A stretch of DNA of 19,333 nt. Origin: Eledone cirrhosa. Taxonomy: Eukaryota. This document shows positions 5,499 through 19,333 of this stretch, one piece after another; position 1 is the stretch's first letter, and each line of letters begins with the position of its first letter. A model generated the notes under the pieces. It was given only the letters and a program-made list of their open reading frames with translations. It was not told the origin of the DNA and ran no database searches. A program made the position numbers and the translations under genes. The stretch covers positions 1 to 19,333 of the forward strand of contig CAXHJY010001007.1 of NCBI GenBank assembly GCA_964016885.1, given 5' to 3'.

Positions 5499-5573
5499 TA
5501 TAAAAAAAAGAGATGAAATCGAAAATGCAACTGGAGCCTTATTTTTAAAAAAAATATATATTTTTATTTGGTT

Positions 5574-5611
5574 CCTTTACCGGTTTCGCAGTTCTTCTGC
5601 TTTTCAAAAGG
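5574..5611 (-). ncRNA. Minimal type I hammerhead ribozyme, U3-A8 variant
   Basis: Minus strand reads CCTT-TTGAAAA-GCAG-AAGAA-CTGC-GAAA-CCGG-TA-AAGG: perfect stems I and II, palindromic ACCGGT stem III, GUA triplet. Confidence 0.8.
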
Positions 5612-5683
5612 TGAGTTGAGAAGGAGGGTCTGTGGTTTTTCTCACATCTGTGAGAAAAACCACAGACCCTCCTTCTCAACTCA

Positions 5684-5721
5684 CCTTTTGAAAAGCAGAA
5701 GAACTGCGAAACCTGTAAAGG
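5684..5721 (+). ncRNA. Minimal type I hammerhead ribozyme, U3-A8 variant (mirror copy)
   Basis: CCTT-TTGAAAA-GCAG-AAGAA-CTGC-GAAA-CCTG-TA-AAGG; one substitution breaks the stem III palindrome. Confidence 0.75.
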
Positions 5722-5862
5722 AACCAAATAAAAATATATATTTGTTTTAAAAATAAGGCTCCAGTTGCATTTTCGATTTCATCTCTTTTTCTTTATACTT
5801 TCACTCGTGTAGGATACCTCGGTTATTTTTCATTTTGTAAAAAAAAACCTCACTTTCTAATA

Positions 5863-8850
<2,988 letters not shown>

Positions 8851-9574
8851 ATTAACCATATATGGTTAATTATGCTAATTGGGAGAAGAAACGGTATATA
8901 TTTTATGTAGTGATTCTATAGACATGTTTTATGATATATATATATAAATATATACAGAAGATCCCATTGTATATACTTATATATACATATATATTTATGA
9001 ACTGGTATATATTTATTTATATATATATATTTAACTATATATGATTGTGTATATATATATATGACCGAGAGAGAGATTTGTTTTGCAAGGTTTTTGATAT
9101 GAAATCGTATTTCTGGCTATATAACAATATGACCCTCCCAAGTATATTTATTTATTTATATATAGTAATAATAAATTTGAAGACTAAACTCCAAAGAGGG
9201 CTCGATGAGGATAAATATATATCAAATATATAAGAACTATAGAGCAAATATTTATTAAAATAATAGATTAAAGTTTAAGCAAAGAATCGCTGCTTTTACT
9301 CTTAACGGAATCTTCTGAAACTCAGAAGATTCCATTAAGTGTGAAAGCAGCGATTCTTTGCTTAAACTTTAATCTGTTATTTTAATAAATATTTGCTCTA
9401 TAGTTCTTATACATTTGATATTTGATATATATTTATCCTCATCGAGCCCTCTTTGGATTTTAGTTTTCAAATTTATTATTACTATATATAAATATATATA
9501 TAAATATACTTGGGAGGGTCATATTGTTATATAGCCAGAAATACGATTTCATATCAAAAACCTTGCAAAACAAA

Positions 9575-9626
<52 letters not shown>

Positions 9627-12892: not shown

Positions 12893-12898
<6 letters not shown>

Positions 12899-13222
12899 AT
12901 ACTTTGGGAGGGTCATGTTGCCAATAAGAAACACACGCACCAGTTACTTTCACTTCAATTTATTATATATTTATAAATTTATAAATTTACAAATCTACAA
13001 ACTTATAAATTATGACTATATATATAAACAACTATCTGGTTGTGGAACCAACCAACCAACCAGAAATTTATAATTTATAAATTTATAAATATATAATAAA
13101 TTGAAGTGAAAGTAACTGGTGCGTGTTTCTTATTGGCAACATGACCCTCCCAAAGTATAACAATATCGGTTTCAACACACGATTTCAGATAAAGAATCTT
13201 GCTAAACAAATTCAGAAACGAA
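12893..13222. mobile_element. Family A copy 2: inverted short arm, filler, long arm
   Basis: 12893-12988 is the reverse complement of ~13071-13164. The long arm 13013-13222 is homologous to 517-672 and extends further. TA on both sides. Confidence 0.75.
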
Positions 13223-13243
13223 ATATATATATATATATATATG

Positions 13244-13435
13244 TATAACGAAAGAAATGTGGTAAGGAACCGGGTGGACCTTAACGCACCAAAGTACTCA
13301 ATACTTAGGGTAGTAGAGTGGGTAATAGGAACCAGTAAGACCCCGACGGCTGAGCTCAAGCCGTTTCGACGGCTAATTCAGAATTAGCCGTCGAAACGGC
13401 TTGAGCTCAGCCGTCGGGGTCTTACTGGTTCCTAT
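13244..13435. mobile_element. Family B copy 1: perfect 55-bp-arm palindrome plus one-sided tail, containing hammerhead 3' half
   Basis: 13325-13379 and 13381-13435 form a perfect inverted repeat. The long arm 13244-13379 matches 14973-15108 (9 differences in ~136 nt by eye). Confidence 0.8.
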
Positions 13436-13717
13436 ATATATGTATATATATATATATATTCAAAAATGTGTGAGATCCTTGGTACAGTTATGTATATTCC
13501 ACCACTAGATCTACCAACTCATAATATTATAAAATTAAATCAAATTATTGAGAACTACAACTGAAGTCATTCTTTTCCTTTTTTTCAAATATATATATTT
13601 TCACATCTCTCTCTATATATATACATATATATCTATCTATATACATATATATTTACATCTATAATATATGTATGTATATATATATATAAATATATATTTA
13701 TATATATACATATTTAC

Positions 13718-13854: not shown

Positions 13855-13909
<55 letters not shown>

Positions 13910-13916
13910 TCGGATC

Positions 13917-13955
13917 TAGCTGTCAAAACGGCCGGAACTCAGCCGCCAGGGTCCT
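13917..13955 (+). mobile_element. Family B diverged fragment
   Basis: TAGCTGTCAAAACGGCCGGAACTCAGCCGCCAGGGTCCT matches family B TAGCCGTCGAAACGGCTTGAGCTCAGCCGTCGGGGTCCT at 32/39. Embedded in TA. Confidence 0.6.
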
Positions 13956-13961
13956 GAATCT

Positions 13962-14010
<49 letters not shown>

Positions 14011-14881: not shown

Positions 14882-14886
<5 letters not shown>

Positions 14887-15108
14887 AACGAGTAGGACCC
14901 CGACGGCTGAGCTCAAGTCGTTTCGACGGTTATTCTCATATATATATATATATATATATGAATATATATAGCGAATTAGCCGTCGAAATGGCTTGAGCTC
15001 AGCCGTCGGGGTCCTACTCGTTCCTATTACCCACTCTACTACCCTACGTGTTGAGTACTTTGGTGCGTTATGGTCCATCTGGTTCCTTACCACATTTCCT
15101 TCGTTATA
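14882..15108. mobile_element. Family B copy 2: palindrome with TA tract in the centre
   Basis: Short arm 14882-14935 is inverted relative to 14973-15027, with a central TA tract. The long arm runs to 15108. Confidence 0.8.
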
Positions 15109-15195: not shown

Positions 15196-18100
15196 TCAGG
15201 ATTTGGGCACCATGGCCCATTCGAGAAGAGAATTACTGTTTGCGGAGACATATCCGGGTGTGGGTGGTTTGTCCGGGATTACTTGGAGGAATTTGTCCAA
15301 AGACTTCTTGAATTTTGTGTGGTCAGTTTCTGTTTTGACGTGTCCTGGTGTGATGTTGAAGAGAGCAGGGCCGATTGAGGTGAAATAATTGTGCCGTATT
15401 GTTGTTATGAGTTGCGATTTAGATTTTTGAATGGGACGGATAGCACGGGGCCCAAGCCTTGGGTGTATCTTGAAGGCGATGCCAACATCATTTGGGCAGT
15501 GATGATGGAACATTTTCCACATCATGCAGATAATATAACGCTCACGGCGACGTTGGAGTGAGTAAAGTTTCAGGTTTTCCAATCGACCCCAGTAGTCAAG
15601 GTCTGACATGCCATCTATCTTTTTCGTGATTGCCCTTTGAGGAGCTTCAAGTTTCATGATACTTTGTTTCGTGTGGGGAGACCACAGTGGACAACAGTAT
15701 TCAAGGTGTGGTCGGGCGAAAGTAGAGAAGAGAAGGATAATGGTGCGGGAATCTCTCGACTGGAAGGTTCTGAGGATCCAGGAACACATTCTGCGGGCCA
15801 TGTCAACTTTGCTGCTTATATGCGTGGTCCAGCTTATGTTGCTGTCCACGGTTACTCCCAAGTCTCTGATGTTGTTAGATGCCACGAGAGTTTCCCCGGA
15901 GGGAAGGGAGTACGGGAGTTTCAGAGCATCCTCTTTTCCAAAGTGGATCAGTTCGAATTTGTCTTCGTTCAGTAACATGTTGTTCTTTTCTGCCCATTGG
16001 GTAACAGCCAGTAGGTCTGACTGAAGGCTTATCCGGTCATCCACGCCATTGATGACCTTTTGGAGCTTGGAATCATCAGCGAAAATTTTAATGTTGCTGT
16101 GTTTGATGATGTCAGTGATGTCATTAATATAGATGATGAAGAGAAGTGGGCCCAACACAGTGCCTTGTGGGACTCCACTACTGACTTTGGCTGGGCTTGA
16201 TTTGACTCCCTCAACTACAACATGTTGGGTTCTGTTTGACAGGAAGCTGTTGATCCACTGCAGCAGCTTTCCAGTGACACCAATATTGGACAGCTTTCTC
16301 AGTAGAATGTTATGATCAACCCTGTCAAAGGCCTTGCTGAAATCAAGGTAGATAACATCAGTGTTGGAACCCTCTCCCAAGGCTCTCAAAATGTCATCAA
16401 AGTGATGCAGTAGTTGCGTCAGGCAATCCCTTCCATTACGGAATCCATGCTGGTTGGAGTTCAGCATATTGTTACTCTCAAGGAAGTGGGTCATTCGCGA
16501 TCTCACCACTCGCTCAAATACCTTAATGATATGAGAGGTGAGTGAGATTGGACGGTAATTCACGGCAAGGGATTTGTTTCCCTTTTTGAAAACTGGGACA
16601 ACAGACTGGGATAGAAGGTTTTCTGGCACATATCCAGCATCCAGTGAGTTCCGCCACAGATTGGCAAGAGGAGAAGCAAGTTGGTGTTGACACGCCTTCA
16701 AGACACAAGCAGGGAACCTATCGGGACCTACTGCTGAATTATGCTTGATTTCCTTTATTGCCGCCAAGACATCAGGGGCGCCAAACGTTATGTCCGATAA
16801 GGTGTAATGGGGAGTAACATCGCCGATACAGCCCAGATCGGCCATATCAGGATTGCTGAAAACAGAGCAGTATTGTTTCTGCAGTATCTCACCCATGGTT
16901 TTAGCATTGTCTTGAAGAGTGCCATTTTCATCAATTAGAGGGCCAACAGTAGAGCCAGTGATTTTGTGTTTTTTTGCAAATGAAAAGAACACTTTGGGAT
17001 TGAGTTTGATCTTCTCAATGGCCCAGGCCTCTTCAGCTCTTCTCTGATTGTTGATGAGGGACATTATGTTGTTTTGGAGGTTATGTTTTTTAATCTCTAG
17101 TGATGAAATGGCAGTCAAGTTGATGTGTTGCTGCTGACAGTATTTCAGCTTGTTGATTTTTTTGTTCGTTCTCTTAATTTTTCTGATGAGCGTTTTTCTA
17201 TTTCTAGGGATTCTGCTCTTAGATTTGTTTATAGTTCTTAATGGGGTGTGTTTAGCACATATGTTTGTAACAGTGTCCACAAATGTCTGCCAGGACTTTT
17301 TGATGTTAGTGGGTGTATGAGTGTGCGTGAAGGACCAGTCGACATGTGCAAGATCATGACTGATCGCTTCCCAGTTTGCATTGTGGAAATCCATAGCGTC
17401 AAACGGATGGACAGGAGAGATGACATTGGGTTTGTATATTGGACGGTGGAATCTCAGATCACAGAGAACCATGTCATGATCAGAGAGTAGAGTTTTCTCC
17501 ACTGCAATATTGTGGATATTGTCAGTGTGATTGCTGAAAATTAAGTCTAGGACGTTTTTGTGGCACCTCGTTGGTTCGAGCACTAGTTGGGATAGGAAGA
17601 AATCATCCATGAAGTCAAGAAGCGATTCCACAGCTTCCCTGTCAGAGGTTGAGGCAGAAGAACCTGGTGGCAGGGTGTTTGTGGACCAGTCAACTCCGGG
17701 GAGGTTGAAGTCCCCCATCATTAAGATGTTGTCAGGGTGACACTCTTGGATGAAACACTTTATGCTGTTGAGGCATTCCTTGAAGCATGGTACAGGCGTT
17801 TGGGGTGGCCTATAGAGCCCAACTACTAATAGGTTGTTGGTTTGACTGAATACAGTGACTGCCTCACAGTATCCATTAGTGAATATGTTCATAGCCTCTG
17901 TTGAGAAAGAATTATGGACATAAATGGCAGTTCCGCCCTTTCTTCTGCCAGCGCGATCAGCACGGATGGCTTTGAAATTTTTCACTTTCACCTCGGCTTC
18001 CAAGTGGAGGTTACTGAGATGGGTTTCAGTGAGGACGAAGAAAGGGATGTGGTTTGGATGGACATCAATCCAGTCCTCCAGGAATTTGATCTTCCATTTT

Positions 18101-18216
18101 TGAGTATTGGTGGAAGGGCTGATGCCTTGGGCGTTAAGCAAAAATGTAGAGGCGAGAGTGGATGGTTTTAATTGTTTTGGTGTGTTGTTAATTTGTTTGT
18201 TTGTTAATGGCAGCAA
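15196..18216 (-). CDS. LINE ORF2: apurinic-like endonuclease plus reverse transcriptase (CR1 group)
   Basis: APE motifs NAQG, LTETHL, YRPP, GDFNLP, LDLIFSN, SDHD. RT motifs YRPISLTS, QHGFR, YLDFSKAFD, SGVPQGTVLGPLLF, FADD. C-terminal SLQRRRERY. The frame is open upstream to 18333, with no ATG before the endonuclease domain. Confidence 0.95.
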   Translation of the reverse strand: MLPLTNKQINNTPKQLKPSTLASTFLLNAQGISPSTNTQKWKIKFLEDWIDVHPNHIPFFVLTETHLSNLHLEAEVKVKNFKAIRADRAGRRKGGTAIYVHNSFSTEAMNIFTNGYCEAVTVFSQTNNLLVVGLYRPPQTPVPCFKECLNSIKCFIQECHPDNILMMGDFNLPGVDWSTNTLPPGSSASTSDREAVESLLDFMDDFFLSQLVLEPTRCHKNVLDLIFSNHTDNIHNIAVEKTLLSDHDMVLCDLRFHRPIYKPNVISPVHPFDAMDFHNANWEAISHDLAHVDWSFTHTHTPTNIKKSWQTFVDTVTNICAKHTPLRTINKSKSRIPRNRKTLIRKIKRTNKKINKLKYCQQQHINLTAISSLEIKKHNLQNNIMSLINNQRRAEEAWAIEKIKLNPKVFFSFAKKHKITGSTVGPLIDENGTLQDNAKTMGEILQKQYCSVFSNPDMADLGCIGDVTPHYTLSDITFGAPDVLAAIKEIKHNSAVGPDRFPACVLKACQHQLASPLANLWRNSLDAGYVPENLLSQSVVPVFKKGNKSLAVNYRPISLTSHIIKVFERVVRSRMTHFLESNNMLNSNQHGFRNGRDCLTQLLHHFDDILRALGEGSNTDVIYLDFSKAFDRVDHNILLRKLSNIGVTGKLLQWINSFLSNRTQHVVVEGVKSSPAKVSSGVPQGTVLGPLLFIIYINDITDIIKHSNIKIFADDSKLQKVINGVDDRISLQSDLLAVTQWAEKNNMLLNEDKFELIHFGKEDALKLPYSLPSGETLVASNNIRDLGVTVDSNISWTTHISSKVDMARRMCSWILRTFQSRDSRTIILLFSTFARPHLEYCCPLWSPHTKQSIMKLEAPQRAITKKIDGMSDLDYWGRLENLKLYSLQRRRERYIICMMWKMFHHHCPNDVGIAFKIHPRLGPRAIRPIQKSKSQLITTIRHNYFTSIGPALFNITPGHVKTETDHTKFKKSLDKFLQVIPDKPPTPGYVSANSNSLLEWAMVPKS

Positions 18217-18371
18217 TGGGAGTTTGTGCAGTGGGGTGATAGTGGAGGGTGGTGCTGGGTGATAGCTCGAATGTTTTTTTCCAGTTCTTTTGCCAGATTC
18301 ATTATGGCTAAAAAAGAGGAAGAAGTTTCCTGTTTAGAAGACTGTTGGTGACTGTGGTAGTGGTTATTTTT
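18204..18371 (-). pseudogene. C-terminal remnant of LINE ORF1 overlapping ORF2
   Basis: Open frame [42 protein letters not shown]...CCH* overlaps ORF2 (which is in the -1 frame) and is truncated by the TA tract. No domain is recognisable. Confidence 0.5.

Positions 18372-19333
<962 letters not shown>

What the first reader, a model, noticed from the sequence alone, without database searches (positions are those of the whole stretch)
13368..13421. Half a canonical hammerhead: palindrome pivots on stem II and the CUGANGA half is absent
Seen: a 12-bp hairpin GACGGCTAATTC-A-GAATTAGCCGTC, then GAAA, stem III ACGGCT/AGCCGT with loop TGAGCTC, a canonical GUC triplet (13413-13415) and GGGGTC. Where CUGANGA should be, the mirror image of the 3' half is found. 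Copy 2 (14882-15108) pivots at the same hairpin and the fragment at 13917 starts within it. Inference: cDNAs stall in, or anneal through, the self-complementary stem II, making ribozyme structure the junction hotspot. The parent should read roughly GACCCC-CTGANGA-stem II.
Basis: partly seen in the sequence, partly recalled or inferred. Interest (0 to 1): 0.7.

Follow-up and report, generated by a model that had tools for sequence, protein, structure and literature searches.

The report
Jumping-gene stubs record their RNA's ends
This hairpin is the joint between two back-to-back stubs of a very common Penelope-like jumping gene; across the genome such stubs stop at two fixed points, one likely the start of the element's RNA (inside its self-cutting ribozyme motif) and one exactly at the ribozyme's predicted cut, so the DNA copies would be a record of how the element is copied.

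Summary
The half hammerhead and its mirror image are real (perfect 55-bp arms, 13325-13435). It is a stub of a Hydra-clade Penelope-like retroelement with over 20,000 copies and an intact 717-aa RT/GIY-YIG parent. The 12-bp hairpin is not stem II; it is the joint of two head-to-head stubs. The parent does carry the missing half, as the U3-A8 variant UUGA(G/U)AA; none of 55 parsed hammerheads reads CUGANGA. The hotspot is real but lies in loop II: 52 of 57 arms that reach it stop within 13 nt, at initiator-like motifs. A second family in the window stops 30 nt after a TATAAAA. A smaller, single-base stop lies exactly at the predicted ribozyme cut (278 arms, against 31 one base short). Copies that run through the ORF ignore the main stop (0 of 16). 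Best reading: stubs are run-off cDNAs from the RNA's 5' end, likely the transcription start; some templates were ribozyme-cut; long copies come from circular or multimeric RNA. No RNA data were available. The stub layout is published, and earlier scan notes on other DNA reported it and hinted at an RNA start. I found no paper describing the two stops.

The parts
13244..13379 (-). Long arm of copy 1: last 136 nt of the element's pseudo-LTR plus tail (d136 to d1)
13244..13324 (-). 81-nt one-sided tail between the two fixed 3' ends (d81-d1); inferred to lie between two reverse-transcription start sites
   Evidence: inverted arm begins at d82 in 56 of 67 copies; two start sites shown in vitro for another PLE (PMC11167929)
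13380..13435 (+). Short inverted arm of copy 1 (d137 to d82)
13368..13392 (.). 12-bp hairpin: joint of the two arms, not ribozyme stem II; its right half is the 3' strand of the parent's stem II
13393..13420 (+). 3' half of a type I hammerhead: GAAA, stem III, GUC, stem I 3' strand; predicted cut between 13415 and 13416
   Evidence: sequence; single-base stop of other copies at this bond
13223..13243 (.). (TA)n target, left flank
13436..13459 (.). (TA)n target, right flank
14882..14936 (-). Copy 2, short inverted arm (d82 to d137)
14937..14972 (.). Copy 2, 36-nt TA-rich spacer between the arms
14973..15108 (+). Copy 2, long arm (d136 to d1), 93% identical to copy 1
13909..13967 (+). Solo short arm of an older subfamily (about d140 to d82), starting in the same stop zone
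   Evidence: matches the L007/L053 subfamily

Best explanation
The palindrome is a stub insertion of a Hydra-clade Penelope-like retroelement, likely made of two short cDNAs that started at two fixed internal sites of one RNA and ran off its 5' end, which is probably the transcription start inside the hammerhead's loop II. Shown: family identity, a full-length parent and perfect tandem arrays; fixed 3' ends at d1 and d82 in (TA)n; a main 5' stop at d135-146; a minor single-base stop at d101; ORF-spanning copies cross the main stop. Inferred: the enzyme nicks both strands of a TA repeat and primes one cDNA from each end; both reach the RNA's 5' end and are joined head to head, which creates the hairpin. 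Because the start site lies between the two halves of the hammerhead, such an RNA, and so the stub, holds only the GAAA half. A small share of templates (roughly 1-2%) had been cut by the ribozyme, giving the d101 stop. Long and tandem copies come from a template with no end at this place, a ligated circle or a multimer.
For: Survival of exact matches genome-wide: 38,820 reach d136, 20,071 d142, 8,859 d146, 5,240 d147, 3,687 d151; extending 15 nt the other way keeps 30,641 (79% against 9.5%). In 90 tail-anchored copies, 52 of 57 long arms and 48 of 51 inverted arms that reach d135 stop by d147. Of 30 ORF-linked copies, 17 have an ORF run of at least 1.5 kb: 16 cross the zone, 0 stop in it, 1 ends at d75; 12 short ones: 0 cross, 6 stop in it; 1 intermediate crosses (Fisher p 2e-10 against terminal copies with one array collapsed). 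Jumps from d141-145 to ORF +90 to +217 show ORF-linked templates. Arms share the subfamily block in 34 of 39 copies (13.9 at random), and 7 copies have non-overlapping arms. A146 and A142 each fit the initiator TCAKTY and a TATA with one mismatch lies in the functional window (PMC1538597). Family 2: 22 of 30 long arms end at -3 to +15 of a site 30 nt after TATAAAA, about 40 nt upstream of its whole hammerhead. Cut site: arms followed by A/T end at d101 in 278 cases, d100 in 31; d102 followed by T in 38, of which 34 are ambiguous; control site d107 has 11 true breaks against about 130 estimated at d101.
Against: No RNA evidence of any kind was obtained. No cap signature: G precedes A146 in only 254 of 3,619 non-C cases. 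The TATA-like motif varies among subfamilies and is absent from the oldest one; no DPE match by eye, and the MTE-like match (9 of 12) fails the first-5-nt requirement. A weak 4-bp hairpin is predicted at d158-155/d146-143. The hammerhead fold is not the lowest-energy fold (-21.2 against -27.9 kcal/mol; stems II and III about 0.3 probable), Rfam finds no hammerhead, and 13 of 55 distinct copies carry a mismatched C3-A8 core. The 90-copy sample is the first 90 matches on one chromosome. Family 2 was not linked to an ORF. Efficient repeated strand jumps could mimic a circular template.
Confidence: 0.65

Rival explanations
1. The main stop is an RNA 5' end but not a transcription start: a longer RNA is trimmed by a 5' exonuclease, or cut by a cellular nuclease, up to the edge of a bound protein.
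For: The stop is spread over 12 nt while the d101 stop is one base wide; no cap-G signature; promoter motifs are short and variable.
Against: Family 2 stops at canonical TATA spacing; the initiator-like TYAGTY is kept in a 73%-identical subfamily whose loop II is otherwise different; Penelope has a mapped internal promoter in its pLTR (PMC2377424).
Confidence: 0.15
2. One reading: the enzyme stalls at stem II, or cDNAs anneal through it.
For: The stop zone abuts stem II's 3' strand; 10 of 39 junctions have 2-7 nt of microhomology; a weak hairpin is predicted at d158-143.
Against: 4 of 61 ends in the stem II zone; 1 of 39 junctions on the AATT centre; ORF-spanning copies do not stop (0 of 16); family 2 stops upstream of its whole ribozyme.
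Confidence: 0.07
3. The second arm arises by fold-back or self-priming of one nucleic acid, as proposed for rotifer Penelope elements.
For: Arms are near-identical (34 of 39); 3 of 39 junctions fit a 4-bp snap-back from d146; model in PMC3846280.
Against: 7 copies have arms that share no sequence; 26 of 39 junctions are blunt or have inserts; 26 of the first 50 cut-site junctions have both arms at d101 with an untemplated insert, 12 of them a single base, too tight for a priming loop.
Confidence: 0.08
4. The element's own endonuclease cuts new DNA at an ATT in the AT-rich loop and discards what lies upstream.
For: d146 is the A of an ATT, the motif preferred by the anole enzyme (PMC11167929).
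Against: It would also cut ORF-spanning copies (0 of 16 stop); the family 2 stop is not at an ATT.
Confidence: 0.05

Closest known systems
Hydra-clade Penelope-like elements (Craig et al. 2021, PMC8557442), nearest named family Hydra-1_Obim
   Same: Single RT + C-terminal GIY-YIG ORF, RW[K/R], DKT, CxCx5C, CxxC, CxH, no GxKF/Y; (TA)n target; hammerhead near the 3' end; inverted 5'-truncated copy and one-sided tail.
   Different: Different family: our DNA and protein motifs give 0 hits in the held supplement text (long runs there are cut), and Hydra-1_Obim's core is listed as ctgaagag. Unit is 3.5 kb (paper: generally under 3 kb), tail 81 nt (paper: 30-40 bp), core U3-A8 with a loop II of about 35 nt.
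Poseidon element of the green anole (Frangieh et al. 2024, PMC11167929)
   Same: Two internal reverse-transcription start sites that define the tail, both target strands cut and extended, ORF-side sequence needed on the template.
   Different: That work found no RNA reads at the ribozyme cut and ribozyme mutants still inserted in vitro; the parts I read describe no 5' run-off stop. Here genomic copies stop at the predicted cut and at a candidate start site.
Hammerheads of PLE pseudo-LTRs (Cervera and de la Pena 2014, PMC4209133) and natural U3-A8 cores (Perreault et al. 2011, PMC3088659)
   Same: Type I topology, bulge after G10.1, palindromic loop III; the cut-and-circularise model was proposed there; U3-A8 is natural and active in vitro.
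   Different: Full 6-bp stem III rather than a minimal one; candidate promoter inside loop II; the 2014 paper states there was no in vivo evidence.
Inverted pLTR palindromes of Adineta vaga Penelope (Arkhipova et al. 2013, PMC3846280)
   Same: Head-to-head pLTRs, tail, TATA and initiator-like motifs in the pLTR.
   Different: Explained there by self-priming on an antisense template; junctions here favour two separately primed cDNAs.
Animal non-LTR retrozymes (PMC7229834; bioRxiv 10.64898/2026.07.22.740005)
   Same: Type I hammerhead, PLE-related, circular RNA intermediates.
   Different: These stubs are not tandem monomers and hold half a ribozyme; the parent is protein-coding.

Membership tests
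Hydra-clade PLE | Single ORF with RT and C-terminal GIY-YIG endonuclease | tested here: met
   717-aa ORF at L207:3957-6107 with QFD, YRDD, YIGLT. Pfam gave no hit; assignment rests on motifs and by-eye comparison with the Hydra alignment.
Hydra-clade PLE | RWK, DKT, no GxKF/Y, CxCx5C linker, CxxC and CxH | tested here: met
   RWR 37, DKT 117, CNCPDRSIC 572, CNLC 670, CKH 698, no GxKF/Y
Hydra-clade PLE | Insertion into (TA)n | tested here: met
Hydra-clade PLE | Canonical hammerhead core | tested here: not met
   Core is UUGANAA in 39 of 55 parsed distinct copies, CUGANAA 14, GUGAGAA 2, CUGANGA 0
Hydra-clade PLE | Placement in an RT phylogeny | not tested
   No tree with named references was built
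EN+ PLE insertion layout | Inverted 5'-truncated pLTR and one-sided tail | tested here: met
   Adjacent inverted piece in 67 of 90 copies, starting at d82 in 56; tail is 81 nt, longer than the published 30-40
Type I hammerhead (parent) | Three stems around the core with a 3-8 pair and NUH site | tested here: met
   ACCCC/GGGGT in 45 of 55; a G-C to A-U change on both sides of stem II in the L007/L053 subfamily; U3-A8
Type I hammerhead (parent) | Match to an Rfam hammerhead model | tested here: not met
   No hit at E 0.01 in 5 loci or at E 10 in one 181-nt stretch
Type I hammerhead (parent) | Self-cleavage | not testable with these tools
   Indirect only: single-base stop of copies at the predicted bond
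Type I hammerhead (window copy) | Complete core | tested here: not met
   5' half absent
Pol II core promoter | Initiator and TATA at functional spacing | tested here: inconclusive
   TCAKTY matched at A146 and, in one subfamily, A142; TATA with one mismatch in the window, not conserved; MTE criterion failed
Non-LTR retrozyme | Short tandem non-coding monomers each with a full hammerhead | tested here: not met
   Tandem units are 3.5 kb and coding; stubs are single and half-ribozyme

The most novel reading that the evidence does not exclude
A Penelope-like element whose promoter fires inside its own hammerhead: the capped RNA starts with half a ribozyme and yields strong-stop-like stubs, until the other half, supplied by the RNA's own 3' end, completes the ribozyme, cuts it and lets it close into a 3.5-kb circle that templates full-length and tandem copies. 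The genome preserves all three template states.
Probability: 0.3. Interest if true: 0.8.

Novelty: new variant of a known kind. Interest (0 to 1): 0.6.

Why it matters
How Penelope-like elements build their pseudo-LTRs and inverted ends, and what their hammerheads do, are open questions; the papers read here report no in vivo sign of cleavage. A family with tens of thousands of young copies gives base-level footprints of the RNA templates: a likely start site, the exact predicted cut, and an endless template for long copies. An intact ORF and near-identical arrays make each step testable with an existing in vitro system. The same counting can be applied to any high-copy PLE family.

Tried and rejected
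Rfam scans of the window, five loci and one parent hammerhead gave only hairpin-type chance matches. Pfam did not recognise the ORF. The protein search returned 17,291 unnamed relatives at E 0.001 and added no label. Sequencing-run search: no RNA holder listed; no reads or contigs were laid. Cap-G signature at A146: not seen. MTE: 9 of 12 at +18, rejected on the published criterion. A splice acceptor at d143-141 was considered and rejected because arms extend to d146 and are not joined to an upstream exon. A second ribozyme cutting at d146 was considered by eye; no conserved GAAA and stem III lie upstream. The first 30 loci were chosen by similarity to the whole arm and were not used for breakpoint counts. 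The raw d101 count of 248 was inflated: 14 of the first 30 were G-run slips. Stalling at an extended stem III was tested and disfavoured (d100 31, d101 278). An ORF link for family 2 was sought and not found. A look-up of earlier notes by sequence returned nothing.

Full report
Observation. The stated parts are in place. The palindrome is perfect for 55 bp each side of A13380; one arm continues 81 nt further to 13244, and both ends abut (TA)n. I use d, the distance from the element's 3' end: d1 is 13244, the hairpin's right strand starts at d136, the predicted cut lies between d102 and d101, and the short arm starts at d82. Copy 2 has the same arms but a 36-nt TA-rich spacer; the third fragment is an older subfamily starting near 13909.

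Identity. The genome is 3.0 Gb; the host is an animal, probably a cephalopod (my inference, not tested). The last 30 letters of the element plus TATA match exactly 20,817 times, control 0. Longer copies lead to a full element at G000:C3 with an inverted pLTR, a pLTR, an RT and GIY-YIG frame, a long 3' UTR and the tail. Two arrays hold about 4.6 head-to-tail units of 3,542 and 3,531 nt, with 7 and 1 mismatches between neighbours and an intact 717-aa ORF. Its motifs are those given for the Hydra clade (PMC8557442 section 11). It is not the listed Hydra-1_Obim.

The missing half. In 30 loci picked only for reaching d151, the core upstream is UUGAGAA in 17, UUGAUAA in 8, CUGAUAA in 1 and unparsed in 4; none has CTGANGA. 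Among 60 distinct full hammerheads from all fetched loci, 55 parsed: UUGAGAA 25, UUGAUAA 14, CUGAGAA 13, GUGAGAA 2, CUGAUAA 1. U3-A8 is a natural covariation that is active in vitro (PMC3088659 passages). The true stem II pairs G.TCGGCTA with the strand at d135-125 across a loop of about 35 nt, and a 73%-identical subfamily changes one of its pairs on both sides. Against: the fold is not the energy minimum, Rfam does not see it, and the C3-A8 copies should be impaired.

The main stop. To avoid selecting on the hairpin I took the first 90 of the 20,817 tail matches. Of 57 long arms that reach d135, 52 stop by d147; 4 of 61 stop in d124-134; 5 of 90 go beyond. Of 51 inverted arms that reach d135, 48 stop by d147. 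An inverted piece adjoins 67 of 90, starting at d82 in 56. Genome-wide exact counts agree: 38,820 at d136, 20,071 at d142, 8,859 at d146, 5,240 at d147, 3,687 at d151, against 30,641 for the same extension downstream. Of 39 resolved junctions 10 are blunt, 16 carry inserts (two inflated by point changes), 3 share one base and 10 share 2-7; one pivots on the AATT centre.

The stop belongs to the template. The tail-ORF junction has 308 exact matches. Of the first 30, 17 run at least 1.5 kb into the ORF: 16 cross the zone, none stops in it, one ends at d75. Twelve short ones never cross and 6 stop in it (two are one insertion); one with an 843-nt run crosses. With one array collapsed, 13/0 against 5/52 gives p 2e-10. 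A structural stall would hit both classes. Several short copies jump from d141-145 to 90-217 nt into the ORF side, one repeatedly, so their template was the ORF-linked pLTR, as the anole enzyme requires (PMC11167929, parts 1-2 of 4 read). Arms match in 34 of 39 copies, and 7 copies have arms with no overlap, which fits two cDNAs from one RNA.

Why a start site. A146 and A142 sit in initiator-like words, and a TATA with one mismatch starts 25 and 29 nt upstream (PMC1538597 passages); the ATG is 235 nt on. Penelope has an internal promoter in its pLTR (PMC2377424 passages). A second palindrome family in the window (8,840 tail matches) replicates the pattern: 22 of 30 long arms end at -3 to +15 of a site 30 nt after TATAAAA, 7 go further, 1 was unparsed, and its complete hammerhead core begins at +43. 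Against: no cap-G, variable TATA, failed MTE, no ORF link for family 2, no RNA holder listed. I put the start-site reading at about 0.65 and some kind of RNA 5' end at about 0.8.

The stop at the cut. A three-mismatch pattern for breaks at d101 gave 248 matches, 16 of the first 30 true breaks, 9 of them with both arms at d101; the control at d107 gave 14 matches, 11 true. Of 316 junctions with both arms near the cut, the first 50 hold 26 with both arms at d101 plus an untemplated insert, 13 blunt and ambiguous, 7 ambiguous GTC, 4 other (counted by hand). Arms followed by A or T end at d101 278 times and at d100 31 times; d102 followed by T occurs 38 times, 34 ambiguous. This is the 5' end expected of the ribozyme's 3' product. 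It is indirect but base-exact evidence of cleavage in the cell, and it shows that joining trims little, so the 12-nt spread of the main stop reflects the RNA ends or incomplete copying near them.

Mechanism. Shown: fixed 3' ends, two 5' stops, matched arms, long copies and arrays that cross the main stop. Inferred: two target-primed cDNAs run off one RNA and are joined head to head; the main RNA end is the start site inside loop II; cut RNA is sometimes the template; circles or multimers template long copies, as proposed in PMC4209133 (part 2 of 4 read). Speculative: the RNA's 3' end completes the half ribozyme at its 5' end. Circle, multimer and repeated strand jumps are not separated by these data.

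What is known. The inverted pLTR and tail are standard (PMC8557442 passages; PMC3846280 passages, which favours self-priming). Retrozyme papers: PMC7229834 passages, bioRxiv 10.64898/2026.07.22.740005 part 1 of 5; PMC7151607 one passage was not informative. Searches turned up no report of a run-off stop or of genomic copies ending at a PLE hammerhead cut; the library lacks most subscription papers, figures are not held, the supplement text of PMC11167929 gave no hits and long runs in that of PMC8557442 are cut. Earlier scan notes on other DNA reached the same stub reading and one hinted at an RNA start; they were read after the breakpoint work and are not counted as support.

Verdict. The structure is a known kind; the two template-end footprints appear to be new and make an open mechanism testable. 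New variant of a known kind, interest 0.6.

Noticed in passing
window 5510-5857: Second palindromic stub family with a complete minimal hammerhead, also with a U3-A8 core (5688), a tail of about 60 nt and a TATAAAA 30 nt upstream of its stop; 8,840 exact tail matches. One copy (L276) has its inverted arm ending at the predicted cut.
   Followed up: partly
window 9067-9584: Third palindrome, arms of about 260 nt, 93% complementary, nested with other TA-flanked pieces; may hold another half hammerhead.
   Followed up: no
window 12896-13161 and 522-669: Fourth inverted-repeat family with two copies in the window.
   Followed up: no
window 15196-18333 (-): LINE with a 1,045-codon open frame (Pfam RVT_1 and Exo_endo_phos_2) whose 3' repeats abut copy 2.
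   Followed up: partly
window 18874-19333: Exact inverted duplicate of 15397-15856 at the contig end; could be an assembly artefact.
   Followed up: no
L205/L206, G000:C1:91470000-91489999: The 5' side of a 4.6-unit array turns into at least 15 tandem 55-57-nt repeats of one ORF segment, like repeated template jumps.
   Followed up: no
L177/L178, G000:C1:27008136-27011418: 257-nt tandem unit running from d145 to ORF +112, a retrozyme-sized repeat born from this element.
   Followed up: partly
L081, L192, L195, L198 and others: More diverged subfamilies carry a mismatched C3-A8 core, and L125/L144 carry G3-A8, while the closest and the most distant ones carry U3-A8.
   Followed up: no
L207/L208, G000:C1:437196500-437216499: Array whose direct 3' end stops at d82 while the inverted piece carries the tail to d1, the reverse of the usual layout.
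   Followed up: no
L031, just 3' of the full-length copy on G000:C3: A different Hydra-type RT/GIY-YIG frame (523 codons) in the same TA tract.
   Followed up: no
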